Shown here: piece by piece, positions 7,501 through 59,014 of the stretch
Layout of the letters: every line of letters begins with the position of its first letter
How positions within the stretch are numbered: the stretch's first letter is position 1
From: a virus
Length of the DNA: 64,000 bases
Virus record (IMG/VR): IMGVR_UViG_3300020421_001669
Coordinates: 32,001-96,000 of that record
Reading direction: 5' to 3' (one strand)
Translations under genes and position numbers: made by a program
Notes under the pieces: model-generated
Told to the model about the DNA's origin: nothing
The model's database searches: none
The model's input: the letters and a program-made list of their open reading frames with translations, nothing else

Positions 7501-7512
7501 AAGGGATAAAAG

Positions 7513-16763: not shown

Positions 16764-17276
16764 ATGACCGAAGAAAAGGCGAAATATCGCAACCCCCGAT
16801 GGATAGATAAAGAAAACCGATCGCTATTCTGCGAGATTTTGGTTGGGCAAAATTATCGTCCAGCACAAATTAATGTTGGTAATATCAAAGAAGGTCTTGT
16901 TAACGAAGACTTTAATGCCGTCATGGAAATCTTCACCGAAGAAGACATCGATGCAAACACAGAAGCACATAAGAATGTTGTCATTGAACAGGAAGAGAAA
17001 GACGCAGAACAACGCGAGGTTCATAGAAATAGAGTAATGCAAGAAGCATTGTTCAATATGAAACTAGAAGCTTTTGAAATTCCTGCCATCAAAAACTCAG
17101 ATGATAAACGAATCAAAAAACTAATTCGTAAAGCAAAAACTCAATTAGAAGTACAGGCATGGGTAACTACATTACTTCAAATGGAAGCATTGTATCAAGT
17201 TCCCAACATGTTTAAGCCAGATGGTACACATCCAGAGTTTGCTCCAGATATACCAGAACCCCCAACGGAACCGTAA
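16764..17276 (+). CDS. Hypothetical protein; N-terminus weakly resembles tail-fibre assembly chaperones
   Basis: GAGG RBS; YRNPRWIDKENRSLFCEI motif; first gene of the GT island. Confidence 0.55.
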   Translation: MTEEKAKYRNPRWIDKENRSLFCEILVGQNYRPAQINVGNIKEGLVNEDFNAVMEIFTEEDIDANTEAHKNVVIEQEEKDAEQREVHRNRVMQEALFNMKLEAFEIPAIKNSDDKRIKKLIRKAKTQLEVQAWVTTLLQMEALYQVPNMFKPDGTHPEFAPDIPEPPTEP

Positions 17277-17980: not shown

Positions 17981-18603
17981 AAACTATAGAATTGAAAAAT
18001 CCAGATGTTTTAGACATCCTTGACAGGTGGATGGATTTTTATAATAACAATGTAAAAGAACCTTTACCAATGGATGAAAGAAGGTTTGGTAACAGGGATA
18101 TGGATTACTATTGTTCAGAAGAGTATCTTAGAGAAGTTCAAGCAAAAGGTGAAGACCACAAAGGCCCACCAGAGTATGCGAAGGTATGTGATTTCCACTT
18201 GACACACGGAGTTGATAAAGAACTTAGAAGAGAGTCCTTGAAGACTTGTGCTGAATTATCCGCGTGGTTGTGTGCTAAATTTAATGCGGTACATGTTTAC
18301 TATCCAGCTGGTGGTTTCATGTCGTGGCATAATAACTGGGATTGTCCCGGCTACAATATTTTATTATCACATAGTGATGGTTGTGGATTCTTTAAACACT
18401 TAGATGAAGATGGAAATGTTGTGACTATCCATGACCCAATTGGTTGGAACTGTAAGATAGGATATTATGGTGGTAAAGATGAACAACCATATTGGCATAC
18501 CGCTGGGAGTCGAGGCCCAAGACAAACATTTGGTTTCGTTGTTCCAGATAAAGATTTGTGGCAAGATATGGTTGAAGATATCTCTACTATAGATGTAGTC
18601 TAA
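17977..18603 (+). CDS. Putative 2OG-Fe(II) oxygenase / cupin-fold protein
   Basis: YPAGGFMSWHNNWD ... YWHTAGS..PRQTFGF: two His and a distal Arg pattern of double-stranded beta-helix oxygenases. Confidence 0.6.
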   Translation: MKTIELKNPDVLDILDRWMDFYNNNVKEPLPMDERRFGNRDMDYYCSEEYLREVQAKGEDHKGPPEYAKVCDFHLTHGVDKELRRESLKTCAELSAWLCAKFNAVHVYYPAGGFMSWHNNWDCPGYNILLSHSDGCGFFKHLDEDGNVVTIHDPIGWNCKIGYYGGKDEQPYWHTAGSRGPRQTFGFVVPDKDLWQDMVEDISTIDVV

Positions 18604-19283
18604 AAGAATCCTTCCCTTTGTCCTATGACCATGAATCGGTCAAACTCTTTCTTACCATCCCAAGAATAATATATTTGTTGTTTGGTTCCCTCATATCCAC
18701 ACTCTTCTATTCCTATTTGTTCTTTTAGTGCCTCTATTGAGTTCACACAATTGATACCATACATCTCTTCAACTACATTTGAGTTTTGCATCGCGTAGAC
18801 GGCATTAGGATTCTTACCCACTAGTTCTGTTAGAGGATACATTTGTTCGGTGTGAATACAGATTACTACATCAACATCAATCTTGTTTAGATTCTCAAAC
18901 TCAAATGGTATGTCCAGATTCCAATGACGAATGTTTACAAATTTTTCTTGGGCGTAATACTTGTGAAATGATTTAGAAAGATTGATACTCTCTTCATCCA
19001 TGTCCACCAAATGAATCTGAGAGACATCTAGGTTCTCACATAAAAGTGGAACCATAGGAAGACCTAACCAAGAATTAAGAATTAATATTCTAAGGTTACC
19101 TTGTTTGGTATAATATTCTTCCAAGTATTCTTTTAGTTCTTCAACCAACCAGATTGAAGCATCCATATTATTTTCCTGTAGAGATTGCCTAAAATCTACA
19201 AGTTTGTGAGGCATTTTGTTTTCTATAACATGTAGCGCCTCACCCCAGTATTTAAAGTTATTTAAAAAATTAAAATTTAACAT
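18600..19283 (-). CDS. Class I SAM-dependent methyltransferase-like protein (possibly degenerate)
   Basis: ILILNSWLG motif I variant, IHLVDMD motif II, VVICIHTEQM, QNSN and C-terminal RFMVIG. Start placed at ATG 19283. Confidence 0.6.
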   Translation of the reverse strand: MLNFNFLNNFKYWGEALHVIENKMPHKLVDFRQSLQENNMDASIWLVEELKEYLEEYYTKQGNLRILILNSWLGLPMVPLLCENLDVSQIHLVDMDEESINLSKSFHKYYAQEKFVNIRHWNLDIPFEFENLNKIDVDVVICIHTEQMYPLTELVGKNPNAVYAMQNSNVVEEMYGINCVNSIEALKEQIGIEECGYEGTKQQIYYSWDGKKEFDRFMVIGQREGFF

Positions 19284-19944
19284 CTTCACCTTTTCCCATT
19301 GAGTCAAAAATACAAACATAAGGTAGTTCGCGGTATGTATGTTTATCTATATCGTGTGGGAAGATATAGCCTTGGTTAAAACTATATACCCAACCTATAG
19401 GAAACAATTTGATTTTGGTTATTCTTCTGTTATAAAAGAAGTTATCAAGACCACGATAGTACCATAGTATTTGTTTCTGATATTTATTAAAATATTCTGT
19501 AATCTCTTCTGTGTTTAAGTTATCATTCCACCTCAGAACCGAAGAGTTTAGATCTGTATATTTATGTGGAATGTGTCTAGTGTTTTTAAATTGAGTTTCT
19601 AAATCGTGCCAGTATGTCTTTACAAAACAAAGACAGTCTTCTGGGTCATAGTCTGCGATGGAACTTATATCTTTCTGAATGATAGTATCAATATCAAAGA
19701 ACATCTTTTCACCCTTCTGTGTAACAATAGTTTCATCGAAGAGATACATTTTATTCCACCACTTTACTAACTTGTTTCCGCCCGGCAATGCGAGTGGCGT
19801 AATGTTCTCATCTAGTCCCTTTGGATTTTCTGTTAAGCAATAGAAACTAAAATCTTGTGGGAGATATTGTAGACAAGCCTCATAGATATTATTTACATGT
19901 TGGTGGTTGTATTTGTCACCCCACTTTACTGTGTAGATATTCAA
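19270..19944 (-). CDS. GT-A glycosyltransferase (KWGxKY family)
   Basis: VKWGDKY, WWNKMYLF, FFDID and NSSVLRW; TTG start overlaps the upstream TGA. Confidence 0.8.
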   Translation of the reverse strand: MNIYTVKWGDKYNHQHVNNIYEACLQYLPQDFSFYCLTENPKGLDENITPLALPGGNKLVKWWNKMYLFDETIVTQKGEKMFFDIDTIIQKDISSIADYDPEDCLCFVKTYWHDLETQFKNTRHIPHKYTDLNSSVLRWNDNLNTEEITEYFNKYQKQILWYYRGLDNFFYNRRITKIKLFPIGWVYSFNQGYIFPHDIDKHTYRELPYVCIFDSMGKGEDVKF

Positions 19945-20573
19945 AATGGTTCCCTCACATAAACTACATTACCAGACGCGGTAATTCTTTCTTCATCTGA
20001 AGTGTAAAAAGGATAAACCATATGTGGTAGTTTCGCATCAAACAAAATCATCTTTCCTTCAAATCCTTTATCAACTGGTATCGCTACTTCTTCTGGGACA
20101 CCCATTGGAGAGTTCATCACAAAACAAAGTCTTGATGTTTTAGGGTCTTTCTTTTCTGGAAAGAATTTGTCTTCCTCCTCTAAATCATATGGTACATTTA
20201 TAAAGATAACAAATGAAAACAATCCGCCATGATTATGCATGGGATTGAATTCATGTTTCTTCTGATAGTTTATCCACACACTTTCTAATCCTATTGGAAG
20301 TAGAGGGTGACTAGTATCTTTTTGCACTTTCATATAGTGTTCTATTTCTGGTCTGTAGAAGTTATTCATGATATCTACTTTTACAGATGAAGGCATGTCT
20401 TCTATTCTTATTTGCCTTTCCAGATGCCCTGCTAAATTATAATTGTTTGAAGTATTACCAACAAAGTTTCTATAATACTCCAAGGTTTCGGGACTCACCT
20501 CACCTGTCCATATGCAGTTATGTTTTGATATTAGTTCTTCTGCTATGAACCAGTTGGGACTCATCATTGCCAT
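19941..20573 (-). CDS. 2OG-Fe(II) oxygenase (phage TIGR02466-like)
   Basis: WINYQKKHEFNPMHNH, LPHMVYPF and ERITASGN. Start placed at ATG 20573. Confidence 0.8.
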   Translation of the reverse strand: MAMMSPNWFIAEELISKHNCIWTGEVSPETLEYYRNFVGNTSNNYNLAGHLERQIRIEDMPSSVKVDIMNNFYRPEIEHYMKVQKDTSHPLLPIGLESVWINYQKKHEFNPMHNHGGLFSFVIFINVPYDLEEEDKFFPEKKDPKTSRLCFVMNSPMGVPEEVAIPVDKGFEGKMILFDAKLPHMVYPFYTSDEERITASGNVVYVREPF

Positions 20574-20578
20574 GTATC

Positions 20579-20737
20579 CTACCAATGTCTTAATACTCCC
20601 GATATAATAAAGAAACAGGTGAAGAAGTTTACCAAGACAACTACGGTTCTCATTATTGCAACCATATCAGCCTCGTGTGAATCATCCGATGCCTTTTCCC
20701 CTAAAGACATGCACCATAGTTTCCAAAGTTTTTTCAT
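20579..20737 (-). CDS. Small conserved phage membrane protein, 52 aa (not in ORF track)
   Basis: GGAGG RBS; MKKLWKLWCMSLGEKASDDSHEADMVAIMRTVVVLVNFFTCFFIISGVLRHW; exactly fills the gap. Confidence 0.75.
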   Translation of the reverse strand: MKKLWKLWCMSLGEKASDDSHEADMVAIMRTVVVLVNFFTCFFIISGVLRHW

Positions 20738-20739
20738 TC

Positions 20740-21552
20740 CTACCTCCAATGTTCTAATAGTTTGGGGTCTGCAAGTTCGTCTTGTTTAGTATGTCCTCTA
20801 CTTTCATCCTCAAACGGTAATAAATCTACATTAAATACACACAAAATACAATTGGGTCTGTATATACCCACATTCAAATCATCTTCATCCCATGACCTAC
20901 CTCTATTATATGAATATGCCATATGTGATGGAAAGTAATCCCATAGTTTAGCACCATACTCACCCCATCTCCATGAGTGATAGTTATCTGTTCCGTCTGT
21001 ATATGTGAACCATATCTTTTCTTGATTCTCTAATACATCTTCCCATATAGGTTCACATTGGTCATCACTCCATACTTGACAACTTCCATTCGTGTACGCG
21101 CCATGTGCTAGTTTAAATTGTCTAGTCTGCATGGGTTTCGGGTCTTGCCACCAAGACCGCATTTTAGTTGGTTGTTCTGTGTTGTAAGTTAGAAGTGGTG
21201 TAATATCATTCTGGATAATTACATCCAAATCAAAGAAGATGAAGCGTCCTGTCGGCTTATCTGGGCCGAAATTGTGAGTATTAAAAACGAAAGTTTTAGG
21301 CCTGTCCCAACAGCGAGCCATGCCGTACTTAAACTCGTCAGCGCCGAACCAGTATTTAGGATGGATGGTAGGGATATCGGGAAATGGTATAACCTTAATA
21401 TCTGGTAATAGTCCCTTATCATTGTCGGTATAACAGTAGAAATGAAAATCCATTGTCGAAGGTGTATTGCGCTTAGACATGTTATAAAGACGGTTAACAA
21501 AGTGCGGGCCATATTTTTCTCCCCATTTACTACAAACTACATTAACTCGCAT
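20740..21552 (-). CDS. GT-A glycosyltransferase (KWGxKY family)
   Basis: CSKWGEKY, CYTDN, CWDRPK, FFDLDVII and YSYNRG. Confidence 0.8.
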   Translation of the reverse strand: MRVNVVCSKWGEKYGPHFVNRLYNMSKRNTPSTMDFHFYCYTDNDKGLLPDIKVIPFPDIPTIHPKYWFGADEFKYGMARCWDRPKTFVFNTHNFGPDKPTGRFIFFDLDVIIQNDITPLLTYNTEQPTKMRSWWQDPKPMQTRQFKLAHGAYTNGSCQVWSDDQCEPIWEDVLENQEKIWFTYTDGTDNYHSWRWGEYGAKLWDYFPSHMAYSYNRGRSWDEDDLNVGIYRPNCILCVFNVDLLPFEDESRGHTKQDELADPKLLEHWR

Positions 21553-24058
21553 GGCAATCTCCACAATTTCTGGTACAAACGCTGAGGGGTTTCCTCTTCA
21601 AGTGTTGACTTATATTCTCAAAGTCATGGTTATAAATTATCTCACCGATATTAAATTTCGTCCCATCATTATACTTGAAATTGTATGTATAGTCAATAGG
21701 ATGATAAGGAAATAATTTGTGTTCCATTACATCTCTAGCAATGTACGCACACGGAAAAAGGTTGCCTTGCGAATTCACATAAAAATATTCACTTTTCCTC
21801 GCGTCACACCATACTGGTTCCTTCTCTTTCATCTTAGGTTTCTTGGTTCGTACTTCCTCATCCTTCTTAAACCGTTTCAATGTTTCCAGACTCACTGGAA
21901 TATCACTAGCAATACTATCATTTACCTTTATTTCGTTTTCGGTTGGTTGTGTAGGAAGTACATGTTCAACCCTATCAACAAAAGGTAGGTCTTTTATATA
22001 TGCCTTGAATGTTTGAACGGTGACTGTACAACCTAATTTTTCTTTAAAATACCGACAAATGGACTCAATTTGGTCACAATTGGTTGGGTCAGTAATTTCA
22101 CACATAAATGTAACCCATTGTAACTTAAAGTTTTCAACTACAGTCTTGAGAGAATCTAGTGTATGTTCCTTTCCATTAACAAAAATATCATTAAATTCAT
22201 TCCCAGTATCATTTTGTTTGGTAGATAGTTGTATTAATGCACCTTCTGGATTGCCATCATCATATAATCCTGTGTATAAGTCACTATATTGTTCTCCATG
22301 CATTTGGAAATACTTGACAAGAGTGTCATTATCTTTTACACTATCTTGATTTATAATGGATATGAGTTCTTGTTTGGGCATGATGTTGTATAGTCGCTCA
22401 AATACTTTCTCATAATCTTCTTTATAAAATAATTCTTTTAGGTTTTGCAGATAGTATTTTTTGTACAGGGATTGAACATCCTCAATTGATGCATCCCAGA
22501 ACACTCTTTGCATCCCATGTTCTTTAATGTTATCCATAACATCTTTTTTGATTTGTGGTAGTGTGTTCTTATCCCATAGTCTTTTGTACAACGCAAAACA
22601 TTGTAGAAAACTTATGTTCCAGAAATATCTAACAGGCCCCAGTTCTTTCGCTTCATCAAACGCGGTTAGGTGAGACTTGTATATGTACCTTTGTTTGTAT
22701 AAGTCATATATCTCATTTGCATCTTTATTCCAATACAAAGACTCATCACCCTGTAATAGTACAGGGTCATCTGGATAGTCAGCGAGAAACTTTTTATGCA
22801 TTGAAATCATATCACCAGAGTCATATAGTTCTTTGATAATATCCTTGTGGTGCGGTTCTATTTGTCGTATAAAGATAAGGTCAGATATCTCTCTTTCTAA
22901 TTCTGGTACATGTACCTTCACTTCAGAAATTGTACCTTTAAAATATTCCTCCAACTCTGGGAAGTCATTAATCATTTTCTCTGAGAGGGATTGCAAATCA
23001 TTTGTTTCAATAAGTTCTTTAATGTCTGATATTGTATTCTTATCCATATAGTTTTCTTGTAGCATACTATCTGTTAGAGATTCAAATCCAATCCACTCGC
23101 GTAGTGTTTCAAACTCTTTTGAATATTGTTCCCAATCTTGTTTTAGTTGTGGTAAGTCTTTGAGGAATTTTTCTTCTAGTGTGTCGTAGTCCTTGGTACG
23201 CAACAATTGAGATATCTTGTTGGTATGTTTATTTTTATCAAAGAAGTTATCTGGGAACTTGGGTAACCACAATCTTTCAAATTCTGTTTTGCCGTGCCAA
23301 TGCGTGAGTAGATTGTAATCTCTCAACTCGTGTGGTTTAAGATTGTTTTTGTTTCTACCACCAACGGATGCTTCAAAGATACAGAACTTTGCATCTTCTC
23401 TATACAGGTGTTGCGTGACATCATTTGGATGTTGTCTCCCTCTATTGTAGGAGTATACCCAATCACTAGGTAAGAACGACCAATAGTTATCGCCTACTGC
23501 TTGATGTTCTCTGTATGGGTAGTAGTTATCGGTTCCTTTCCAAAAGGTTTTAAACACCGTGTCCTTGTGTTTCATTACATCATTGTAAATCTTTTCCCCT
23601 TGGTCAGTACACCATAACATGACACTAGAGTTATATAATGTGCCACGCATATCTGTAAATCTTCTGTCATTGAGAACTTTTGGATTTTCCCAATTGGAAT
23701 AAATCATGTGCGGAGTTTTCGATAGTTCAAATATGTCATCGATGTTATTTTGAATGATAACATCTAAATCCAAATAACAAAAAGGCCCTTTGGTTTTTAA
23801 CCAGTGGTGAGAATTTAGTACGAGAAATTTTGACCTATCCCAACAGAAGTTTTCTTGACCAAACCAATGCCGTGGATGGAGAGGGTCTACATTGGGTATA
23901 GACCGAATCTTAATATCCTTGTGTATATCTTCTGGTTCGTCTGTGTAGCATATGAACTTAAACCTTTTGGTGTAGTTCTGCTGAACCATTCTGTATAAAT
24001 TGTTTACATATTCTGGAGAGTACTTATTGCCCCATTTCATGCAAAGAAAGTGCATCAT
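21542..24058 (-). CDS. Fusion: GT-A glycosyltransferase + helical region + degenerate radical SAM/SPASM-like domain
   Basis: N-terminal CMKWGNKY/YLDLD; C-terminal WCDAR...GNLFPCAY...CTRNCGDC; CxxxCxxC motif absent. Confidence 0.7.
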   Translation of the reverse strand: MMHFLCMKWGNKYSPEYVNNLYRMVQQNYTKRFKFICYTDEPEDIHKDIKIRSIPNVDPLHPRHWFGQENFCWDRSKFLVLNSHHWLKTKGPFCYLDLDVIIQNNIDDIFELSKTPHMIYSNWENPKVLNDRRFTDMRGTLYNSSVMLWCTDQGEKIYNDVMKHKDTVFKTFWKGTDNYYPYREHQAVGDNYWSFLPSDWVYSYNRGRQHPNDVTQHLYREDAKFCIFEASVGGRNKNNLKPHELRDYNLLTHWHGKTEFERLWLPKFPDNFFDKNKHTNKISQLLRTKDYDTLEEKFLKDLPQLKQDWEQYSKEFETLREWIGFESLTDSMLQENYMDKNTISDIKELIETNDLQSLSEKMINDFPELEEYFKGTISEVKVHVPELEREISDLIFIRQIEPHHKDIIKELYDSGDMISMHKKFLADYPDDPVLLQGDESLYWNKDANEIYDLYKQRYIYKSHLTAFDEAKELGPVRYFWNISFLQCFALYKRLWDKNTLPQIKKDVMDNIKEHGMQRVFWDASIEDVQSLYKKYYLQNLKELFYKEDYEKVFERLYNIMPKQELISIINQDSVKDNDTLVKYFQMHGEQYSDLYTGLYDDGNPEGALIQLSTKQNDTGNEFNDIFVNGKEHTLDSLKTVVENFKLQWVTFMCEITDPTNCDQIESICRYFKEKLGCTVTVQTFKAYIKDLPFVDRVEHVLPTQPTENEIKVNDSIASDIPVSLETLKRFKKDEEVRTKKPKMKEKEPVWCDARKSEYFYVNSQGNLFPCAYIARDVMEHKLFPYHPIDYTYNFKYNDGTKFNIGEIIYNHDFENISQHLKRKPLSVCTRNCGDCHAS

Positions 24059-24677
24059 AATATTTTTGTCTCAAATTGTAATTGACTTCATTTTGTCCGT
24101 TTAGTAGAACAATTGGATAATCTTTTTTTATTTGATGAGCTCTTGGTGAAGTATCTGTTTCCATATCTACCCCAGCAAGAAAAGAATATATCAATCCTTT
24201 TGGGAATGTTCTTTTGAAAAACCTTCCATCATATAAAAAATTATCATCCTTACCATCGTATTTATGCAAGTTAAAATCAAAGTTTTTGAAAAACGACTCT
24301 GTTATATAGGCGGCATTATCACAGTGCCACGCCATGACACTAGAGTTCCACGCACCGCCAAAGTCTTTCCAGTAAGTTTCACATATAGTGGGTTCATCAC
24401 AATACCCAAACAGTGGCTCAAGGTCTCCCTGTACGATTAAATCTAAGTCTAAATATAAAGTTGGGCCACCAAAATCTTTACCAAGAAGTAAAATTTTTTC
24501 CCAGTTGCCCAGACCAGTAGACTTCTGTGTAAGTATTCCTTGTTGTAATCCTTCTGGGTCATCGGTGCGACACCAAAAGTTACCACCCTGTAGATAAGGT
24601 TTACACATATTATAAATAGTGTTTACATCATTGGAAGAGTATTTGTTTCCGTATTTTAGCGTAACAATTGTTCTCAT
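24024..24677 (-). CDS. GT-A glycosyltransferase (KYGxKY variant)
   Basis: LKYGNKY, CRTDD, WEKILL, YLDLD and WNSSVMAW. Confidence 0.8.
   Translation of the reverse strand: MRTIVTLKYGNKYSSNDVNTIYNMCKPYLQGGNFWCRTDDPEGLQQGILTQKSTGLGNWEKILLLGKDFGGPTLYLDLDLIVQGDLEPLFGYCDEPTICETYWKDFGGAWNSSVMAWHCDNAAYITESFFKNFDFNLHKYDGKDDNFLYDGRFFKRTFPKGLIYSFLAGVDMETDTSPRAHQIKKDYPIVLLNGQNEVNYNLRQKYYDALSLHEMGQ
24611..24618 (+). promoter_or_regulatory. Late promoter TATAAATA for 24696, embedded in the antisense GT gene
   Basis: Exact consensus about 80 nt upstream of 24696. Confidence 0.65.
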
Positions 24678-43041: not shown

Positions 43042-43070
43042 TTGACTTTTGCATAACTTTACTATAGAAT
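43042..43070 (+). promoter_or_regulatory. sigma70-type promoter TTGACT-17-TAGAAT for gp55
   Basis: TTGACT 43042-43047 and TAGAAT 43065-43070. Confidence 0.7.
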
Positions 43071-43080
43071 GGGTAACATT

Positions 43081-43689
43081 ATGACTAAAAAATCAGAAAC
43101 TAATAGACACTATGTCAACAACAAGGAATTTCTTGCCGCTATGACCGAGTATCGGGAGTCCCGATTGGCCGCAGAGGAGAAGGGAGAATCCAAACCGCGT
43201 GTGACAGAGTACATTGGGGAGTGTTTTGTAAAAATCGCAAATCACTTGGCATACAAATCAAATTTTGTAAACTATACATTCAGAGAAGAAATGATTTTGG
43301 ATGGTATAGAAAACTGTATCACATACATTGATAACTTCAATCCAGAAAAGTCAAAGAATCCGTTTGCATATTTTACGCAGATTACATACTATGCTTTTCT
43401 AAGAAGGATACAAAAAGAAAAGAAACAACTTGACACTAAGTACAAGTACATCCAGAACCTTGACATGCAATCTATCATAGATGGTGAAGAGGGACAGGGT
43501 GGTGGTTCTGCTGATTTCATTGAATACATGAAGAAACAAATCGATGAAGCGGAAAAACATAATGCTCAATACGCAGAACAAGATAAGAAGGTTCCTAAAA
43601 GGCGTCCAAAATATCTGGATGACAAAGAAGCAATGAAGATGGCAAAGGAGAAAATACCAGAGTTGAAAGATGCAGAAAAAAGTACTTGA
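43081..43689 (+). CDS. gp55: Late-transcription sigma factor gp55
   Basis: HYVNNKEFL, NFVNYTFREEMILDGIENC and NPFAYFTQITYYAFLRRIQKEKKQ. ATG 43081 preferred because ATG 43069 overlaps the -10. Confidence 0.95.
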   Translation: MTKKSETNRHYVNNKEFLAAMTEYRESRLAAEEKGESKPRVTEYIGECFVKIANHLAYKSNFVNYTFREEMILDGIENCITYIDNFNPEKSKNPFAYFTQITYYAFLRRIQKEKKQLDTKYKYIQNLDMQSIIDGEEGQGGGSADFIEYMKKQIDEAEKHNAQYAEQDKKVPKRRPKYLDDKEAMKMAKEKIPELKDAEKST

Positions 43690-43714
43690 CTTTTGCCCTC
43701 AGATAGCGTATAAT
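43686..43714 (+). promoter_or_regulatory. sigma70-type promoter TTGACT-17-TATAAT
   Basis: TTGACT 43686-43691 and TATAAT 43709-43714. Confidence 0.8.
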
Positions 43715-43752: not shown

Positions 43753-44292
43753 ATGAACATATTTTATTTACATAAAACCCCTACCGTATCAGTAAAAATG
43801 CATTGCGACAAACATGTCGTGAAGATGGTTATTGAGTACGCTCAGTTATTGTCTACTGCCCATAGGATGTTGGATGGTACACAATGGATTGATGCATCTA
43901 GTGGTAGGAGAATCAAACGGTGGCGACTAGACAATTCCAACATGGATGGTGTCCTATACAAAGCGTCACATATCAATCACCCATCTGCTATATGGGTTCG
44001 TCAAAACAATTCCCAGTATCAATACATGTACAACATGTTTACTAATCTTTGTGATGAGTACACATACAGGTACGGTAAAATACACATGACTGATTCTAAG
44101 TTGCGTGAATTGTTATCCGAGACACCAAAGAACATACCAACTGGTTCTTGGGTTGAACCACCACAATGTATGCCAGATTACTGTAAACAGTCCAACGCTC
44201 TTGATGGGTACAGAACCTATTACAGAGAAGAGAAAAAGGGTTTCGCTAAGTGGACTAACCGCGATGTACCAGAGTTTATGAATGTCGCATGA
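43753..44292 (+). CDS. Pyrimidine dimer DNA glycosylase / DenV-like family protein
   Basis: MNIFYL, HCDKHVVKM..EYAQLLSTAH, H.NHPSAIW, EYTYRYGK.H and PPQCMPD. Confidence 0.8.
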   Translation: MNIFYLHKTPTVSVKMHCDKHVVKMVIEYAQLLSTAHRMLDGTQWIDASSGRRIKRWRLDNSNMDGVLYKASHINHPSAIWVRQNNSQYQYMYNMFTNLCDEYTYRYGKIHMTDSKLRELLSETPKNIPTGSWVEPPQCMPDYCKQSNALDGYRTYYREEKKGFAKWTNRDVPEFMNVA

Positions 44293-45401
44293 TATTATCA
44301 AAAGAAGATACGATATATGCTAGTAAGATAGTTGTTGATTACTTCTCAAAGTTTGAGAGGATTGACGATTACTTTCGTGCAAGAAAAATCGAAAGGGTGA
44401 AGGCATTGCCTCCACCCCTTTTTGGTATGAGCGTAGAGGATGACATGTTCCAGAGTTGGGATATGCATCCAGAAGAAATGAATTTTGAAGTTGTTCAAAT
44501 GAACAACGAGGTGTTTGACCAGATGTTAGAGATGACTGCATCTTTTTCACCAGACCAAGCGCCAGGCAAAGAATTAAAACTGATTGTGAAGGAAACGAAT
44601 ACAAACACAGCAGTTGGTTTTATCAAGTTGGGGTCACCGTTAATAAACTCCAAACCAAGGAATGATTTTCTTGGTGGTGTCCCCGACTTGCCTATCTTCA
44701 ACAAGAGGGCAATCATGGGGTTTAATATAGTTCCAGTACAACCATTTGGATTTAATTATCTAGGTGGTAAGTTACTGGCTGCCATTTGTTGTTCACATGA
44801 AGTACGAAGGATGTTGAACAAGAAATATAATACAGAGTTCTGTTTGTTTGAGACTACATCTTTATATGGTAACATAAAGGGTGCTAGTATGTACGATGGT
44901 ATGAAACCCTTCCTAAGATACAAGGGAGATACCATGTCATCATTCTTACTGACTATGGGTGAAGAGATTTATTTTCATCTACGCGATTGGTTTGAAGAAA
45001 AGAATGGTGGTGAAGTTCTTATTCATAAAGGTGCATCTAGTAGAAAACTAAAATACCAAACAAAGATGATTCAAGTTCTCAAGGCAAATCTAAAAGAACA
45101 TGATACAAAAGCATATGAGATGTTTGATAGTGTAATCAAAAAGTCAACCGATGTGACCACACAAAAAAGATTTTATATGTCAGAGTACGGATACAAAAAT
45201 GTACGCGAAGTTCTTTTAGGTAAGACAGAAACACTAGAAAAGGCAGAAAACTTTGACAGGTTTGAACTAGAAAATGTCATTGATTGGTGGAGAAAGAAAG
45301 CCGTCAAAAGATATGACAACTTGGTATCAGATGGAAGAATACGAAAAGATTTGGAAGTCTGGAATTCTGAAACAATTGACAAAATAGATATAATAAGATG
45401 A
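44289..45401 (+). CDS. DUF4338 / Druantia DruA-like protein
   Basis: IVPVQPFGFNYLGGKLLAAICCS and FETTSLYG...SMYDG family motifs. Confidence 0.7.
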   Translation: MILSKEDTIYASKIVVDYFSKFERIDDYFRARKIERVKALPPPLFGMSVEDDMFQSWDMHPEEMNFEVVQMNNEVFDQMLEMTASFSPDQAPGKELKLIVKETNTNTAVGFIKLGSPLINSKPRNDFLGGVPDLPIFNKRAIMGFNIVPVQPFGFNYLGGKLLAAICCSHEVRRMLNKKYNTEFCLFETTSLYGNIKGASMYDGMKPFLRYKGDTMSSFLLTMGEEIYFHLRDWFEEKNGGEVLIHKGASSRKLKYQTKMIQVLKANLKEHDTKAYEMFDSVIKKSTDVTTQKRFYMSEYGYKNVREVLLGKTETLEKAENFDRFELENVIDWWRKKAVKRYDNLVSDGRIRKDLEVWNSETIDKIDIIR

Positions 45402-45649
45402 ACATAGAAATTTATTCAAAACCAGATTGTCCCTACTGTGACAGGGCAGTGTTTATTGCACAACAAATAATTCAAGAAACAACACACATCAAGTATGAAA
45501 AGAAAATGTTAGATGAAGATTTTACATTTGACGAATTACTTGAGAAATCACCCAACGCGAAAACCTTCCCACAGATATTTGTGGATGGTGAACTCATTGG
45601 TGGATTTAATGAATTTGAAAAAATGGAATGGTGGGCAGACAGACAATGA
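45398..45649 (+). CDS. nrdC: Glutaredoxin
   Basis: CPYC active site and TFPQIFVDGELIGGF. Confidence 0.9.
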   Translation: MNIEIYSKPDCPYCDRAVFIAQQIIQETTHIKYEKKMLDEDFTFDELLEKSPNAKTFPQIFVDGELIGGFNEFEKMEWWADRQ

Positions 45650-46053
45650 AAATAGGATTCACTTGCGGTGCATTTGATTTACTACACGCTGGTCATGTTG
45701 TTATGCTTCAAGAAGCAAAAAACAATTGTGACTTTTTAATTGTGGGATTACAAACAGACCCCACACTGGATAGGTCAGACAAAAACAAACCTGTTCAAAG
45801 TATATACGAAAGATATATTCAGTTGCATGGTATAGAAGCTGTAGATGAAGTTATACCATATGACAGAGAAGCATCTTTGATGGATATACTAACCACAAAA
45901 CCAATTGATATAAGATTTGTAGGCGAAGAATATAAAGATAAACAATTTACAGGACAACACTTGGATATAGAAATTTATTATACAAGTAGGACACACACTT
46001 TTTCTTCTACAGATTTGAGGAAACGAGTACAGAATGCTCCTAAACCAAAATGA
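45646..46053 (+). CDS. Cytidylyltransferase (TagD/glycerol-3-phosphate CT-like)
   Basis: GAFDLLHAGH (HxGH motif), VGLQTDP and RTHTFSSTDLR. Confidence 0.85.
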   Translation: MKIGFTCGAFDLLHAGHVVMLQEAKNNCDFLIVGLQTDPTLDRSDKNKPVQSIYERYIQLHGIEAVDEVIPYDREASLMDILTTKPIDIRFVGEEYKDKQFTGQHLDIEIYYTSRTHTFSSTDLRKRVQNAPKPK

Positions 46054-46366
46054 TATTGGTGGATATGTTGCTAAGGAAGACGATAGGTATATCGTCAAGG
46101 ACAATCCTTTTGGCAACACACTAGTAATTAGTAGTACGCGACTGCATGGTGGACAGGAAACCACTGGACACGAACATGATGGTCAAGAAGAGGTATATTT
46201 TTTTATTGAAGGTGAAGGTATCATAGAATTGGATTCTTTATACACCCATGTTAAGGCTGGTGATATAGTTCCAATCCAAGATGGTGTCTTTCACAAAGTT
46301 TATAATAGTTCAGATGACAATGATTTATATTTCATTTGTGTGTTTGACGGAAAGAGAAGAGTATGA
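46034..46366 (+). CDS. Cupin domain protein
   Basis: GHEHDGQEEVYFFIEGEG...GDIVPI.DGVFHKV. Confidence 0.85.
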   Translation: MLLNQNDIGGYVAKEDDRYIVKDNPFGNTLVISSTRLHGGQETTGHEHDGQEEVYFFIEGEGIIELDSLYTHVKAGDIVPIQDGVFHKVYNSSDDNDLYFICVFDGKRRV

Positions 46367-47349
46367 AAATAACATGTGCTAGATTGCGGTCTAATGTAAA
46401 GTATGAAGGCCCACTACAAACGGTACTAGATAGTTTCTTAGAGAACTATGTAAAGTGGATGAGGGCAAACCCCCAACACCAGTACGATACATATAACATA
46501 TCCTTTGATGGTACAAGACCTAAAAGAACACCAGAGACAATAGAATGGGCTGACGCGATAGTAATCCCTAGTGATAGTGAGTTTAGATATCATGGTGAGT
46601 TACAAATGAATCCAAAAGACTTGGCGAAGTCACAGTCTCACATGGATAACATTATACCATTCTTCAAGGACAAACATGTCATTGTCATGAGAAGTGATAG
46701 GGGTGATACTGAACAACTATATAGAGAAGAGACACTACAGAATGTTCCAATAAAATCTTACACAGAGATTGATGAGATTGATTTTCCAGGCAACATTCAT
46801 GGAATGAAGTATCACTTTATAAGAAACAAATTTGGTAACCCACTATTCACTACGGCAAAGAGAACTGACTTTGGATATTGGGGGCGCATGAAGACAGGAT
46901 GTGACCGCGATAAAATTATTAGAAAGATTTACCGTGACCCAGATTTAACCACTTGTTTGATTGGTGGATTTCCATCTGGTATTCAAAGACAATCATCGTG
47001 GATAAAGGATTGGAACCAATTGTATCCCATGTTAGAACCATGTAGATGGACACTGTGTTTCAATTGGAAGGATGAGACTGCTACCACCTCTAGGTATGTA
47101 GAGGCACTTGCAATTGGAATGATACCATTTGTCTGGCAACAATACGACAAGAACAATACATACAACATAGACCCTTGGCAAAGAATAGAAGACTTTGATG
47201 ATTTAAAATCTAAGGTCATGGAACTGAGGGATGAAAGTGTACTAGAGAGAAAACTTGAATTGTATAGAATGAACTATAATGAGAAACTATTATCCCTTGG
47301 TGGATACTACGATATTTTTAAAGGAAAAATGAACAAGGTTATTACATGA
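46363..47349 (+). CDS. GT-B glycosyltransferase resembling T4 DNA beta-glucosyltransferase
   Basis: DFGYWGRMKTG vs T4 BGT DVIYGGSFRSG; TSRYVEALA...YDKNN vs TLRVWETMA...FDTKH (T4 sequence recalled from memory). Adjacent to gp47, the alpha-gt locus in T4. Confidence 0.65.
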   Translation: MKITCARLRSNVKYEGPLQTVLDSFLENYVKWMRANPQHQYDTYNISFDGTRPKRTPETIEWADAIVIPSDSEFRYHGELQMNPKDLAKSQSHMDNIIPFFKDKHVIVMRSDRGDTEQLYREETLQNVPIKSYTEIDEIDFPGNIHGMKYHFIRNKFGNPLFTTAKRTDFGYWGRMKTGCDRDKIIRKIYRDPDLTTCLIGGFPSGIQRQSSWIKDWNQLYPMLEPCRWTLCFNWKDETATTSRYVEALAIGMIPFVWQQYDKNNTYNIDPWQRIEDFDDLKSKVMELRDESVLERKLELYRMNYNEKLLSLGGYYDIFKGKMNKVIT

Positions 47350-48398
47350 AGATTGCTCTAGTTAACGATACACACTTTGGTGCGAGGTCAGACAGTTTAC
47401 CGTTTGATGCGTACTTTAAGAAATTCTATGATGAGTTTTTCTTTCCCACTCTCGCGGAAAAAGAAATCAAGACTGTCATGCATTTGGGTGATATCTTTGA
47501 TAGAAGAAAGTATATGAATTATAACACACTTAAAAGTTGTAAGGAGTATTTCTTTGACCAAGCAAAAGACCTAAATATAGATATGCATGTGGTGCCTGGC
47601 AACCACGATACATATTTTAAAAACACTAACAATGTCAACGCGCCAGAACTTCTACTGCAAGAGTATGAAAATGTCAAAGTATATCCCGAAATTACTGAAC
47701 TGGAATTCGATAACAGAAAGATTCTATTCGTTCCTTGGATATGTAGCGATAACTATAGTAGTACTATGGAAATGGTCGGCAGAACAGACGCAAAAGTTTG
47801 TTTCGGACATTTCGAGTTTTCTGGGTTCCAAATGTACGCAGGCATGCCGAATGAGCATGGAATGGATCATACTGCCTTTGAGCACTTTGATTTGGTTTGC
47901 AGTGGTCATTACCACCATCGTAGTAGCAGGGATAATGTGGTCTATCTTGGTAATCCTTATGAAATTACATGGTCGGATTTTAATGATGCACGAGGGTTTA
48001 ATATCTATGACACAGAAACGAATGAATTAGAGTTCATGCAAAATCCTTATAGAATGTTTCATAAGATATTCTATAATGATGTTGACGATAATGTTGAGTA
48101 TGATTTGACAGGATTAGTTGGGGGATGTGTAAAGGTCATCGTAGTAAAGAAAGAAAACTTTACAAAGTTTGATAAACTTATTGACTCTTTGTATAGTTGT
48201 AATCTAGTAGAACTGAAAATTATCGAAGACTTCTCAGAGTTTGAGGATAATGCTGTTGGGGATATAGATTTAAAACTGGATGATACCATTACATTGTTAA
48301 ATGATTATGTTGATAACACTGTCACTGATTTAGATAAGGACAGGTTAAAGTCTCTACTACAAACGCTGTATGTAGAGGCACAACATCACGAGAATTAA
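47346..48398 (+). CDS. gp47: Recombination endonuclease subunit gp47 (Mre11-like)
   Basis: DTHFG, HLGDIFDRRK, GNHD and SGHYH. Confidence 0.95.
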   Translation: MKIALVNDTHFGARSDSLPFDAYFKKFYDEFFFPTLAEKEIKTVMHLGDIFDRRKYMNYNTLKSCKEYFFDQAKDLNIDMHVVPGNHDTYFKNTNNVNAPELLLQEYENVKVYPEITELEFDNRKILFVPWICSDNYSSTMEMVGRTDAKVCFGHFEFSGFQMYAGMPNEHGMDHTAFEHFDLVCSGHYHHRSSRDNVVYLGNPYEITWSDFNDARGFNIYDTETNELEFMQNPYRMFHKIFYNDVDDNVEYDLTGLVGGCVKVIVVKKENFTKFDKLIDSLYSCNLVELKIIEDFSEFEDNAVGDIDLKLDDTITLLNDYVDNTVTDLDKDRLKSLLQTLYVEAQHHEN

Positions 48399-57443: not shown

Positions 57444-57610
57444 TGTATTGGATTGAAGGAATGATTGCCGTCTATGGAATGATACTTTCTTTCATGGCCG
57501 GCTGGTTGATGCCTAGAGGCAATTTTATTAGAACTTCCCAGTTATGGTTAACCAAAAAAATATACAACTGGTTAGCACATGACAAGGAAAAATTGAAGGA
57601 GAAAAAATGA
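57443..57610 (+). CDS. Small membrane protein, 55 aa (not in ORF track)
   Basis: TAATG and ATGA overlaps on both sides; hydrophobic N-terminus. Confidence 0.6.
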   Translation: MYWIEGMIAVYGMILSFMAGWLMPRGNFIRTSQLWLTKKIYNWLAHDKEKLKEKK

Positions 57611-58230
57611 CAGATTTTAATATTGAAGTTGGTCAAAAACTACCAGAAGATATCACTTTCCACATGAGGGTAAGGGATGAAAAGATGGTAGAACAGGGGG
57701 ATGAGAATCCATATCAGTGGCAACTAGTAAACTCAACTGACTTGTTCAAGGACAAGAGGGTTGTATTGTTTGCTTTGCCTGGCGCGTTTACTCCGACTTG
57801 TTCAACCTATCAACTACCAGATTACGACAACAATTATGAGTTGTTCAAAAGGTCTGGTATCGATGAGGTATATTGTCTATCTGTTAATGACAGTTTTGTT
57901 ATGAACAAATGGGGCGATTGGTTGGACATTGATAGTGTAAAACTAATTCCAGATGGAAGTGGTTTCTTTACAGAGGCTATTGGTGCGTTGGTAAAGAAAG
58001 ACAACTTAGGATTCGGGCCAAGGTCTTGGAGATATTCAGTCCTAGTAAATGATGGTGTTGTAGAAAAGGCATTCATCGAAGAGGGATGTGAAGATGATTG
58101 TCCCGCTGACCCATACGAAGTTTCTGACCCATACACAATGATGCAATATATTCAAAACGAAAGTCCTGTAGGACAACAGTATGAGTTGAATCTTGAAGAT
58201 GGATTGGGAACAGAAGAACAGGTTGGATAA
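57607..58230 (+). CDS. Peroxiredoxin (Prx5/AhpC-TSA type)
   Basis: FALPGAFTPTCS, SVNDSFVM..W and GFGPRSWRYS. Confidence 0.92.
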   Translation: MTDFNIEVGQKLPEDITFHMRVRDEKMVEQGDENPYQWQLVNSTDLFKDKRVVLFALPGAFTPTCSTYQLPDYDNNYELFKRSGIDEVYCLSVNDSFVMNKWGDWLDIDSVKLIPDGSGFFTEAIGALVKKDNLGFGPRSWRYSVLVNDGVVEKAFIEEGCEDDCPADPYEVSDPYTMMQYIQNESPVGQQYELNLEDGLGTEEQVG

Positions 58231-59014
58231 AGTTGATTACGATATAAAACCTTTATCAAAGGAACTCGCAATCGATTTTATTCAGACGCATCATTATTCA
58301 CCAATGATGCCTAAACTGACAAAGCATTATCTAGGGTGCTTTCTCAATGGTGAACTTGTAGGTGTTTTGACTTTGGGCTGGGGTACTCAACCTAGACAAA
58401 CAATCAATAAGATGTTTACTGGTCTTGAGTCAAAACACTATTGGGAAATTGGTAAGATGTGCATGACAGATGACATGCCAACCAATTCAGAATCACAAAT
58501 GATATCCCAAACAGTCAAGTGGATAAAAGAAAATACACCCGATGTATTATTTCTTTACACAATGGCAGATGGTATCATGGGCAAATGTGGATATGTATAT
58601 CAGGCCAGTAATTTTTTATACGGTGGAAAATACTTCACTCAAGTCTACGAGATAAATGGAGAAAAGATTCACCCTAGAACGACAGGAAAACTATGTGAAG
58701 AGAACGCAAGGTTCTCTGGTAGAGATAAAATTTTTTGGTTGACTTCTGACTTTATGAAAGAAAAGGGAATCAAAAAAATTGAAGGGTATATGTTCAGATA
58801 TATCTTTCCACTAAATAAGAAAGCAAAAAGACTATTGAAAAAATCAAATATGGAATGGACTAGAAATTATCCAAAAGACCATGACTTAAAATGGTTTGAT
58901 AAAACTGGTAAACCCAAATTTGAAATTGAACAACCCCACTTTTCATATGATGAAGTATTACATAATTCTAAGAACATCGATGGTGGTGGTGCATCTTTAA
59001 GAGGTATATTATGA
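58193..59014 (+). CDS. Mom-family (GNAT-like) DNA modification protein
   Basis: FIQTHHYS, GVLTLG, EIGKMC, PTNSESQMIS and MADG..G.VYQASNFLYGG resemble Mu Mom-family motifs. Start may be TTG 58223. Confidence 0.65.
   Translation: MKMDWEQKNRLDKVDYDIKPLSKELAIDFIQTHHYSPMMPKLTKHYLGCFLNGELVGVLTLGWGTQPRQTINKMFTGLESKHYWEIGKMCMTDDMPTNSESQMISQTVKWIKENTPDVLFLYTMADGIMGKCGYVYQASNFLYGGKYFTQVYEINGEKIHPRTTGKLCEENARFSGRDKIFWLTSDFMKEKGIKKIEGYMFRYIFPLNKKAKRLLKKSNMEWTRNYPKDHDLKWFDKTGKPKFEIEQPHFSYDEVLHNSKNIDGGGASLRGIL

What the first reader, a model, noticed from the sequence alone, without database searches (positions are those of the whole stretch)
45646..47349. BGT-like DNA glycosyltransferase coupled to a TagD-like cytidylyltransferase and a cupin: candidate novel DNA sugar modification
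Seen: three overlapping, translationally coupled genes directly upstream of gp47, where T4 carries alpha-gt. The GT's C-terminal half aligns by eye to T4 beta-glucosyltransferase (Y.G..R/K.G; T.R..E..A; terminal helices). Known: BGT transfers glucose from host UDP-Glc to 5hmC. Inference: the linked HxGH nucleotidyltransferase and cupin (isomerase/epimerase) make a dedicated NDP-sugar or CDP-polyol donor, giving a non-glucose adduct on hmC. This would be the effector behind the GpC footprint.
Basis: partly seen in the sequence, partly recalled or inferred. Interest (0 to 1): 0.8.

Follow-up and report, generated by a model that had tools for sequence, protein, structure and literature searches.

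The report
BGT-like DNA sugar-transferase gene cassette
A marine T4-like phage carries, in the slot where T4 has its alpha-glucosyltransferase, a distant relative of T4's DNA beta-glucosyltransferase. It is coupled to a sugar-activating enzyme and, more constantly, to a Mom-like (DruA-family) enzyme, which points to an undescribed sugar decoration of phage DNA that does not start from hydroxymethylcytosine.

Summary
Window 45646-47349 encodes a HIGH-motif cytidylyltransferase-like enzyme (CT), a small cupin and a 328-aa protein, joined by 4- or 20-nt overlaps and ending on gp47.

The 328-aa protein has no Pfam, PHROG or NCBIfam match. A family profile hits only T4 beta-glucosyltransferase (BGT) in the PDB (E 1.8e-4). 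Its AlphaFold model (pLDDT 93.7) is closest to T4 BGT (Z 19.2), then T4 AGT (Z 16.5).

- The genome has no dCMP hydroxymethylase, C5-, N4/N6- or D12-methyltransferase, so "adduct on hmC" lacks a basis.
- The cupin is sporadic (5 of 55 related loci).
- CT is frequent (37 of 55).
- The constant partner is the upstream DruA/DUF4338-family GNAT-fold protein (53 of 55, both gene orders, several contexts). Its model is closest to phage Mu Mom.
- Relatives add a second glycosyltransferase (GT), either TAGT or GT1-family.

The restriction-site footprint is real (CCNGG 78/78, CCGG 29/29, GGNCC 96/96). It also occurs on contigs without GT or CT, and is absent from GT+CT genomes that carry a different DruA-like subtype. 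The trio is therefore not its writer.

Best reading: an accessory DNA-glycosylation step on an unknown acceptor. Other first-stage notes in this scan flagged the same DruA-like/BGT-like pair on other genomes.

The parts
43686..43714 (+). Promoter-like site (TTGACT-17-TATAAT, 11 of 12) ahead of the overlapping gene chain
   Evidence: This is a consensus match only.
43753..44292 (+). 179-aa protein (phrog_624, named 'DNA binding protein'), first gene of the ATGA-coupled chain; role unknown
   Evidence: (E 4.2e-51), and (upstream of the DruA-like gene in the closest relatives)
44289..45401 (+). DruA/DUF4338-family, GNAT-fold, Mom-like protein (370 aa); the constant partner of the GT
   Evidence: PF14236 E 1e-7. 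PADLOC DruA E 5.5e-5. Model pLDDT 80. VIA top match is Mu Mom 8bv8, Z 9.4, followed by GNATs at Z 8.6 or less. Present in 53 of 55 loci.
45398..45649 (+). Glutaredoxin (83 aa), found only in the closest relatives
   Evidence: PF00462 E 6.9e-12. Present in 7 of 55 loci.
45646..46053 (+). HxGH nucleotidyltransferase (135 aa) of the TagD / RfaE-domain-II / ECT type; presumed maker of the activated donor
   Evidence: PF01467 E 3.3e-15. TIGR02199 73.7 bits and TIGR01518 66.3 bits, both far below cut-off. PDB 1coz E 7.4e-14. Directly upstream of the GT in 34 of 55 loci.
46034..46366 (+). Small metal-site cupin (110 aa; HxH...E...H), a sporadic accessory
   Evidence: PF07883 E 2.9e-11. PDB 1o4t E 4e-7. 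Present in 5 of 55 loci. Falls in viral Cupin_2 clusters.
46363..47349 (+). GT-B glycosyltransferase (328 aa), a distant homologue of T4 beta-glucosyltransferase
47346..48398 (+). gp47 (SbcD-like) flanking gene; fixes the synteny with the T4 a-gt slot
57607..61681 (+). Second cassette: peroxiredoxin, bona fide Mom (PF25680), a CT fused to a PMI-type cupin, and a radical-SAM+SDR protein. Its CT is a paralogue of the first CT.
   Evidence: Mom E 3.9e-59; MannoseP_isomer E 1.6e-23; CTP_transf_like E 1.4e-15. (42% identity, E 6e-16).

Best explanation
The 328-aa protein is a GT-B glycosyltransferase of the T4 BGT lineage. It is expressed with the replication and recombination genes.

Most likely it transfers a sugar, or a sugar-like group, from a nucleotide-activated donor onto phage DNA after replication. 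The adjacent HxGH nucleotidyltransferase would make the donor from a host sugar- or polyol-phosphate. The small cupin is an optional helper: either a sugar-phosphate isomerase or, alternatively, an oxygenase.

The acceptor is not T4-type hmC. The best candidate is a base adduct written by the adjacent DruA-family, Mom-like GNAT enzyme. That would make the GT a secondary, dispensable decoration step, as glucosylation is for T4 hmC.

Shown: fold, homology, conserved donor-site residues, gene linkage, and absence of known acceptor pathways. Inferred: DNA as substrate, donor identity, and dependence on the DruA-like product.
For: Homology
- T4 BGT is the only PDB sequence hit of the family profile, and hhalign covers the whole C-terminal domain.
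- The best structural matches are T4 BGT (Z 19.2) and T4 AGT (Z 16.5), against 14.9 or less for generic GT-B enzymes. Foldseek's top hits are AGT and BGT at about 1e-7.
- Family-invariant or near-invariant G174, K177, R182, R244 and E247 align with BGT G188, R191, R195, R269 and E272.
- An always-acidic residue 112 and an invariant D115 follow beta-4, where BGT has D100 (by topology only).

Context
- The gene sits in the T4 a-gt slot between gp55 and gp47, within an ATGA-coupled chain behind an early-type promoter.

Linkage
- The DruA-like gene is present in 53 of 55 loci.
- Adjacency is kept in both orders (L155, L156).
- It is kept beside gp47, DNA polymerase or gp46.

DNA-directed company
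- TAGT (PF20691) lies downstream of the GT in 14 loci, and a GT1-family enzyme in 8.
- The family member P0189 is fused to ParB_N + an N6_N4 DNA methylase.
- The DruA-like model is nearest to Mu Mom.

Precedent
- CT + betaGT-like GT gives heptosyl-5hmC.
- Phage NDP-arabinose genes sit beside DNA arabinosyltransferases (PMC13326640).
Against: - No acceptor-making pathway is recognisable.
- The Tet_JBP search was uninformative because its control did not ring.
- The protein is near neutral (pI 7.6; family median 8.1), against 9.05 for BGT.
- The genome purges many restriction sites: ACGT 0 against 173 expected, GATC 34 against 555, and many hexamers at zero. Its DNA is therefore not blanket-protected.
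- The GCC/GGC footprint does not need GT or CT.
- The small CT is a stand-alone gene in many unrelated phages with no GT nearby.
- The phage has no PfkB kinase and no SIS isomerase, so it carries no heptose route of its own.
- A published view assigns pelagimyophage GTs and rfaE-like genes to host surface modification (PMC7029224).
- The Mom-likeness of the DruA-like protein is within 1 Z unit of ordinary GNATs, and there is no sequence similarity to the window's Mom.
Confidence: 0.5

Rival explanations
1. The acceptor is not DNA. CT makes CDP-glycerol, CDP-ribitol or an NDP-heptose. The GT decorates a host envelope polymer, a virion protein or a small molecule, for example to block superinfection. 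The DruA-like GNAT acylates the same non-DNA target or the sugar.
For: - Below BGT and AGT, the structural list is all cell-wall, thiol or lipid GT-B enzymes.
- The CT's best curated matches are RfaE domain II and TagD.
- Sugar-nucleotide GNATs (PseH, FdhC) are among the DruA-like model's matches.
- L066 carries UDP-sugar dehydrogenase and epimerase genes nearby.
- The published reading for pelagimyophages is surface modification (PMC7029224).
- The GT pI is neutral.
Against: - The only sequence-level relative in the PDB is the DNA enzyme BGT.
- The gene sits in the replication and recombination block at the T4 a-gt slot, not in the tail-fibre or LPS island.
- It is associated with TAGT, with a ParB-methylase fusion and with a Mom-like family.
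Confidence: 0.25
2. A classical route. The GT glycosylates 5hmC, 5hmU or 5hoC. The base is made by an enzyme that was not recognised, lies in the missing ~9% of the genome, or is supplied otherwise. The DruA-like protein is unrelated to the GT's chemistry.
For: - All characterised BGT-like enzymes act on a C5 hydroxymethyl or hydroxyl pyrimidine.
- The genome is estimated 91% complete.
- The Tet_JBP search had no working control.
- 2OG-Fe(II) oxygenases exist in the window and in HTVC008M.
Against: - No TS homologue was found by HMM or tblastn, and no C5-MT motif.
- The 100%- and 95%-complete relatives G005 and G004 were not checked for these families, so this point stays open.
- Strong genome-wide avoidance of C-containing sites argues against full cytosine replacement.
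Confidence: 0.12
3. There is no common pathway. CT, cupin and GT are independent accessory genes that accumulate in a plastic slot of the T4-like genome. The CT has a nucleotide-metabolism or counter-defence role of its own.
For: - CT homologues (45-58% identity) stand alone in Acinetobacter, Vibrio and Caulobacter phages.
- Streptomyces phages are the most frequent hit class for the CT (63 records). Their gene contexts were not examined.
- The cupin is sporadic.
- In T4 the gp55-gp47 slot holds mobile and accessory genes.
Against: - CT abuts the GT in 34 of 55 loci, often with overlapping codons, across GT identities of 63-94% and in different genomic contexts.
- A CT-cupin fusion lies next to Mom in the same genome.
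Confidence: 0.1

Closest known systems
T4 beta-glucosyltransferase (CAZy GT63; Pfam PF09198; PDB 1bgt, 1c3j, 1j39)
   Same: GT-B fold, similar length, and nearest solved structure (Z 19.2). The C-terminal donor-binding domain is alignable by profile, with counterparts of G188, R191, R195, R269 and E272. An acidic residue follows beta-4. It is a phage early gene in the replication block.
   Different: About 15% identity. It does not reach the Pfam model. No hmC pathway exists in the genome. It has a dedicated nucleotidyltransferase instead of using host UDP-glucose. It is linked to a GNAT-fold protein. It is less basic.
Subclass III phage hypermodification clusters of Pyle et al. 2023 (bioRxiv 10.1101/2023.12.21.572611), contig 53: C5-MT + 5mYOX/TET + HAD/APH + cytidylyltransferase + betaGT-like GT-B, giving mono- and di-heptosyl-5hmC
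   Same: A cytidylyltransferase-like enzyme is paired with a T4-betaGT-like GT-B enzyme in a phage. Foldseek E-values to BGT fall in the same range (1e-5 to 1e-7).
   Different: No C5-MT, no recognisable TET and no HAD/APH kinase-phosphatase. The partner is a DruA/Mom-like GNAT instead. Sequences of contig 53 were not available for comparison.
RB69/DLP3 arabosyl-5-hydroxycytosine clusters (PMC13326640)
   Same: Phage-encoded NDP-sugar synthesis genes are clustered with DNA glycosyltransferases in T4-like phages.
   Different: Those depend on a thymidylate-synthase homologue that makes 5hodCMP. Their nucleotidyltransferase has a different fold (MurU-like). None of this is present here.
Phage Mu Mom (PF25680; PDB 8bv8), a Gly-tRNA(Gly)-dependent GNAT that makes N6-carbamoylmethyl-dA (PMC13219725)
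   Same: The DruA-like partner has a GNAT core with helical insertions, and Mom is its best structural match (Z 9.4). A true Mom gene with a CT-cupin fusion lies 11 kb downstream.
   Different: There is no detectable sequence similarity between the DruA-like protein and Mom. The structural margin over ordinary GNATs is under 1 Z unit. No glycosylation step is known for Mom.
TagD (glycerol-3-phosphate cytidylyltransferase) and RfaE/HldE domain II (heptose-1-phosphate adenylyltransferase)
   Same: HxGH and RTxxxSST motifs, about 130 aa, and full-length alignment to TagD structures (1coz).
   Different: Scores are about 40% of either equivalog cut-off, so the substrate is unresolved.
Druantia type I DruA (PF14236, DUF4338)
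   Same: The Pfam and PADLOC DruA models match the 370-aa partner above the Pfam gathering score.
   Different: It is phage-encoded, with no DruB-E, and the match covers only the core (residues 67-192).

Membership tests
T4 beta-glucosyltransferase family (GT63 / PF09198) | Match to the curated family model | tested here: not met
   Pfam scan found 0 families at E<=0.1. Only the distant family member P0266 touches PF09198, and below cut-off (E 7.7e-4).
T4 beta-glucosyltransferase family (GT63 / PF09198) | GT-B two-Rossmann fold, with BGT as nearest structure | tested here: met
   Model pLDDT 93.7. 1c3j Z 19.2, rmsd 3.5, 284 aligned residues; the next non-T4 enzyme scores Z 14.9.
T4 beta-glucosyltransferase family (GT63 / PF09198) | UDP-sugar phosphate- and ribose-binding residues (BGT R191, R195, R269, E272) | tested here: met
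   K177, R182, R244 and E247 are invariant or near-invariant in 43 sequences and aligned by hmmsearch and hhalign. R182 is one column off in hhalign.
T4 beta-glucosyltransferase family (GT63 / PF09198) | Catalytic base Asp100 at the end of beta-4 | tested here: inconclusive
   Residue 112 is D or E in all sequences, and D115 is invariant after beta-4. No residue-level superposition was available, and MAFFT misaligns the N-terminal domain.
T4 beta-glucosyltransferase family (GT63 / PF09198) | 5-hydroxymethylcytosine DNA as acceptor (a dCMP hydroxymethylase in the genome) | tested here: not met
   PF00303 is absent while its control rang in 10 genomes. tblastn with T4 gp42 gave E>0.8.
MT/5mYOX-dependent glycosylation clusters (Pyle et al., subclass III) | C5 cytosine methyltransferase | tested here: not met
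   PF00145 is absent while its control rang in 9 genomes. No PCQ...ENV motif in six frames.
MT/5mYOX-dependent glycosylation clusters (Pyle et al., subclass III) | TET/JBP-type dioxygenase | tested here: inconclusive
   PF12851 found nothing, but nothing rang in any control genome either. Only a PF13759 oxygenase was seen, in the tail-fibre region.
MT/5mYOX-dependent glycosylation clusters (Pyle et al., subclass III) | betaGT-like GT-B enzyme with an adjacent cytidylyltransferase | tested here: met
TagD (TIGR01518) / RfaE domain II (TIGR02199) | Score above the equivalog cut-off | tested here: not met
   66.3 bits against 165.4, and 73.7 bits against 181.5. Only the superfamily models PF01467 and TIGR00125 are passed.
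Cupin_2 (PF07883) | Family model match and a metal-site motif | tested here: met
   43.4 bits against a cut-off of 27.2. The HxH...E...H motif was read in the translation. Its function is not defined by membership.
DruA / DUF4338 (PF14236), for the partner gene | Family model above gathering score | tested here: met
   31.9 bits against 27. The precomputed PF14236 label is on most homologues. PADLOC DruA E 5.5e-5.
Mom (PF25680), for the partner gene | Sequence membership | tested here: not met
   No Pfam Mom hit. hhalign against the window's own Mom gave probability 0.5%. There is fold-level likeness only.

The most novel reading that the evidence does not exclude
The DruA-family GNAT enzyme is a sequence-context-specific DNA writer related in fold to Mom. 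It may use an aminoacyl-tRNA or another acyl donor, and may act in a GCC/GGC context. The BGT-like enzyme then glycosylates that adduct with a donor made by the phage CT. The product would be a glycosylated DNA base that needs no thymidylate-synthase homologue, methyltransferase or TET. This would also give the first functional clue for Druantia DruA.
Probability: 0.2. Interest if true: 0.9.

Novelty: new variant of a known kind. Interest (0 to 1): 0.66.

Why it matters
All known glycosylated phage DNA bases start from a C5 hydroxymethyl or hydroxy pyrimidine, made either by a thymidylate-synthase homologue or by a methyltransferase plus TET. Here a BGT-lineage enzyme is widespread in marine T4-like phages: 902 clusters at 90% identity and 146 at 50%. 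These phages show none of those routes. Instead, the enzyme is tied to a Mom-like GNAT family that is also the signature protein of Druantia type I.

If the pair acts on DNA, it defines a new entry point to DNA glycosylation. It would also make DruA's biochemistry testable.

The variable accessory genes (CT, cupin, TAGT, GT1-family, epimerase, dehydrogenase) suggest glycan diversification under defence pressure in abundant ocean viruses. A cultured phage, HTVC008M, carries the pair, so the question is open to experiment.

Tried and rejected
- Complex prediction of the GT with the DruA-like protein returned no verdict (score 0.01). It counts neither for nor against binding.
- The search for homologous proteins with 'longer' found no fused forms. 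This is weak evidence only. The one fusion (P0189) came from the representative search.
- The search for related loci with alignment A1 failed for lack of conserved stretches, so the single protein was used instead.
Whole records were fetched and counted in Python instead.
- The genome search could not reach the ENA contigs behind L158 and L159. IMG/VR equivalents were used.
- hhalign of the DruA-like profile against the window's Mom found no similarity. BLASTP of cupin A against the cupin half of the CT-cupin fusion found none either.
- Foldseek of the DruA-like model against the PDB gave nothing at E<=0.001.
- MAFFT with T4 BGT misplaces the N-terminal domain, so the alignment of D115 with a BGT Asp there was not used.
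- A literature search for DruA biochemistry found only Druantia III/DruE papers.
- The idea that Mom (cassette B) writes the footprint was rejected. G004 and G005 lack Mom but have the footprint.
- The idea that HTVC008M gp105 and gp106 equal p179 and the DruA-like protein held only for gp106.
- A phage-encoded heptose pathway was rejected: no PfkB and no SIS.
Full report
**What is there**

The window belongs to a 161,406-bp IMG/VR virus record, estimated 91% complete, of a marine T4-like myovirus. Its nearest cultured relatives are Prochlorococcus, Synechococcus and Pelagibacter myophages.

Downstream of gp55 (43069-43689) lies a chain of co-directional genes:

| Coordinates | Gene |
|---|---|
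| 43753-44292 | 179-aa protein (phrog_624) |
| 44289-45401 | 370-aa DruA/DUF4338-family protein |
| 45398-45649 | glutaredoxin |
| 45646-46053 | HxGH nucleotidyltransferase (CT) |
| 46034-46366 | cupin |
| 46363-47349 | 328-aa protein (GT) |
| 47346-48398 | gp47 |

gp46 and a peptide deformylase follow. Five junctions are ATGA overlaps, and CT/cupin overlap by 20 nt. A near-consensus sigma-70-like site precedes the chain. In T4 the interval between gene 55 and gene 47 holds a-gt.

**The glycosyltransferase**

The 328-aa protein matches nothing in Pfam, PHROGs, NCBIfam or PADLOC. As a single sequence it matches nothing in the PDB even at E 10.

- It has 902 relatives at E<=0.001 in the 90%-clustered collection, and 146 clusters at 50% identity. 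All are unannotated and mostly marine.
- A 43-sequence alignment (A1) shows conserved motifs: DFxYWG, an invariant Arg, TLCFNW, T(S/A)RYxEAxAxGxxP and YD.
- The A1 profile finds only T4 BGT in the PDB (E 1.8e-4). hhalign extends the match over the whole C-terminal domain (E 7.6e-5).
- This places K177, R182, R244 and E247 at BGT's R191, R195, R269 and E272. From established BGT structural work, those are the UDP-binding residues.
- The AlphaFold model is confident (pLDDT 93.7, pTM 0.91).
- In an exhaustive comparison with 48,161 chains, the best match is T4 BGT (Z 19.2, rmsd 3.5 A, 284 residues) and the second is T4 AGT (Z 16.5). Generic GT-B enzymes start at Z 14.9.
- Foldseek agrees. In the viral library, uncharacterised phage proteins and one protein named 'DNA beta-glucosyltransferase' lead.
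- After beta-4, where BGT carries the catalytic Asp100, the family has an always-acidic residue 112 and an invariant D115. This equivalence rests on topology only.

That did not happen.

**CT and cupin**

The CT passes only superfamily models. RfaE domain II (73.7 bits) and TagD (66.3 bits) are both far below their cut-offs. TagD structures align end to end. The donor therefore cannot be named.

Close CT homologues stand alone in many unrelated phages. The cupin has a classical HxH...E...H metal site and belongs to small viral Cupin_2 clusters.

The genome has no PfkB kinase or SIS isomerase. Any sugar-phosphate must come from the host.

**Co-occurrence**

Eighty IMG/VR loci encoding the GT (65-94% identity) were fetched and scored with tblastn. 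Of the 55 with at least 2.5 kb of upstream sequence:

| Gene | Loci out of 55 |
|---|---|
| DruA-like | 53 |
| CT | 37 (34 directly before the GT) |
| Glutaredoxin | 7 |
| Cupin | 5 |

- The DruA-like/GT pair persists beside gp47, beside DNA polymerase, and after gp46 in HTVC008M. There the GT (39% identity) is followed by a JmjC-like cupin and a DruA-like paralogue.
- The pair occurs in both orders on two marine MAG contigs.
- Where CT is missing, a second glycosyltransferase often follows the GT: TAGT (PF20691) in 14 loci, or a GT1-family enzyme in 8.
- One locus adds a UDP-sugar dehydrogenase and an epimerase.
- A distant family member, P0189, is fused in frame to ParB_N plus an N6_N4 DNA methylase and is followed by an Asp/Arg-hydroxylase-type oxygenase. 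This rests on a single high-GC contig.

Many loci are near-duplicates, so these counts are not independent events.

**The partner**

The DruA-like protein passes PF14236 and has more than 6,000 relatives. These include copies in cultured Synechococcus myophages that lack the GT, where the gene usually lies between clamp-loader genes.

Its model (pLDDT 80) has a GNAT core. The best match is phage Mu Mom (Z 9.4), but ordinary GNATs follow within 1 Z unit, and Foldseek is weak. A published annotation of the S-SCSM2R homologue also calls it Mom-like (PMC12801897). Mom is a Gly-tRNA-dependent DNA adenine modifier (PMC13219725).

**Second cassette**

The two CTs are paralogues (42% identity). The fusion supports a functional CT-cupin link. 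However, cupin A is not detectably similar to the fused cupin.

**Acceptor**

The genome lacks:
- a thymidylate-synthase or hydroxymethylase homologue;
- C5-MT;
- N4/N6 and D12 methyltransferases.

The TET search was uninformative. "Adduct on hmC" is therefore unsupported.

**The footprint**

The genome avoids restriction sites on a large scale. ACGT occurs 0 times against 173 expected, and GATC 34 against 555. At least twelve C-containing hexamer palindromes with meaningful expectation are absent altogether.

- All 29 CCGG and all 78 CCNGG sites are flanked so as to form GCC or GGC. About 28% would be expected by chance.
- All 96 GGNCC sites have N = G or C.
- GCC-containing hexamer palindromes are not purged (p 0.008, n = 5).
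- Part of this pattern, the loss of GGWCC, could be plain site avoidance.

Across whole records the footprint is:

| Footprint | Records | Features |
|---|---|---|
| Present | G000, G001, G004, G005 | DruA-like 72% identity or more; CT in 3 of 4; Mom in 2 of 4 |
| Absent | G002, G003 | GT 67-68%, CT 62-63%, DruA-like 53% |
| Absent | HTVC008M, S-CAM9, P-HM2 | |

On loci, grouped by DruA-like identity and CT:

| Group | CCNGG flanked |
|---|---|
| DruA-like 64% or more, CT present | 192/192 |
| DruA-like 64% or more, CT absent | 82/84 |
| DruA-like 55% or less | 54/81 |

Loci with a 70-75% DruA-like gene but no GT within 3 kb still show the footprint (39/40). A 65.6-kb contig has gp55-gp47-gp46 contiguous and no GT or CT, yet shows 49/49 and 28/28.

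The trio is therefore not the writer of the footprint. The footprint tracks the DruA-like subtype. Two caveats apply: shared ancestry and host could explain the tracking, and the contigs are incomplete.

**Verdict**

The GT is a genuine, previously unannotated BGT-lineage enzyme. It is most plausibly a DNA glycosyltransferase acting as an accessory step (confidence about 0.5). CT is its likely donor supplier, and the cupin is optional.

The acceptor is unknown. The linked Mom-like GNAT is the leading candidate for making it (about 0.2 for the full two-step model). A non-DNA acceptor remains a serious rival (about 0.25).

The closest described system is the CT + betaGT-like heptosylation cluster of Pyle et al.. 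This cassette differs from it in lacking the methyltransferase/TET front end.

Noticed in passing
whole genome (G000), including window 1-64000: Extreme restriction-site avoidance. ACGT occurs 0 times (173 expected), GATC 34 (555) and CCGG 29 (124). Hexamers ACGCGT, GGTACC, TCTAGA, TTCGAA, TCGCGA, GTCGAC, GTGCAC and TGCGCA are all absent.
   Followed up: partly
whole genome and relatives G001, G004, G005, G007, G008: CCGG, CCNGG and GGNCC survive only where they overlap GCC/GGC. In this genome the counts are 29/29, 78/78 and 96/96. The pattern tracks the DruA-like subtype (64% identity or more), not GT, CT, cupin or Mom. GCC/GGC fits better than plain GpC, because GpC-containing hexamers without GCC are purged.
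   Followed up: yes
window 57607-61681: A second cassette next to the clamp loader: peroxiredoxin, a true Mom homologue (PF25680, E 3.9e-59), a CT fused to a PMI-type cupin, and a radical-SAM + short-chain dehydrogenase protein.
   Followed up: partly
L154:5525-8077 (JGI metagenome contig, 69% GC): A BGT-like family member is fused in frame to ParB_N + an N6_N4 DNA methylase and followed by an Asp/Arg-hydroxylase-type oxygenase. The GT's first ~22 codons lie in another frame, which suggests a frameshift or a sequencing error.
   Followed up: partly
S-CAM9 (NC_031922), whole record: All 37 CCGG sites are flanked by G or C (37/37), although CCNGG (49/269) and GGNCC show no such bias. This phage has a DruA-like gene (49% identity) but no GT.
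   Followed up: no
L001 (HTVC008M) 6001-8711 and record 99535-100656: HTVC008M has two DruA-like paralogues. One is 51% identical and lies next to DNA polymerase. The other is 32% identical and lies two genes after the GT, separated from it by a JmjC-like cupin.
   Followed up: partly
L039:8790-10001, L066:11045-12295, L062:7962-9389, L071:3908-5242: ORFs of 403-475 aa with no Pfam match sit between or beside the DruA-like gene and the GT in some loci. By eye, their N-termini look GIY-YIG-like, which suggests homing-endonuclease insertions. This was not confirmed.
   Followed up: no
window 16764-24677: In the island noted by another reader, Pfam recognises only a weak Glyco_transf_8 match (E 0.0023) and one PF13759 2OG-Fe(II) oxygenase. 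The other ORFs have no family, and none is TET-like.
   Followed up: partly
L155 (PBDY01000027.1) and L156 (NHJA01000011.1): The only GT hits in 185,579 species genomes are on contigs of marine MAGs (a Gammaproteobacteria bin and a Pelagibacter bin). Both carry the DruA-like/GT pair and are probably phage contigs binned with cellular genomes.
   Followed up: partly
L158:1-2578 (ENA contig k127_17141) and relatives: GT-less phages carrying a 74%-identical DruA-like gene encode two N6_N4 DNA methylases near the clamp genes, and an IMPDH-like gene plus MazG after the DruA-like gene.
   Followed up: no
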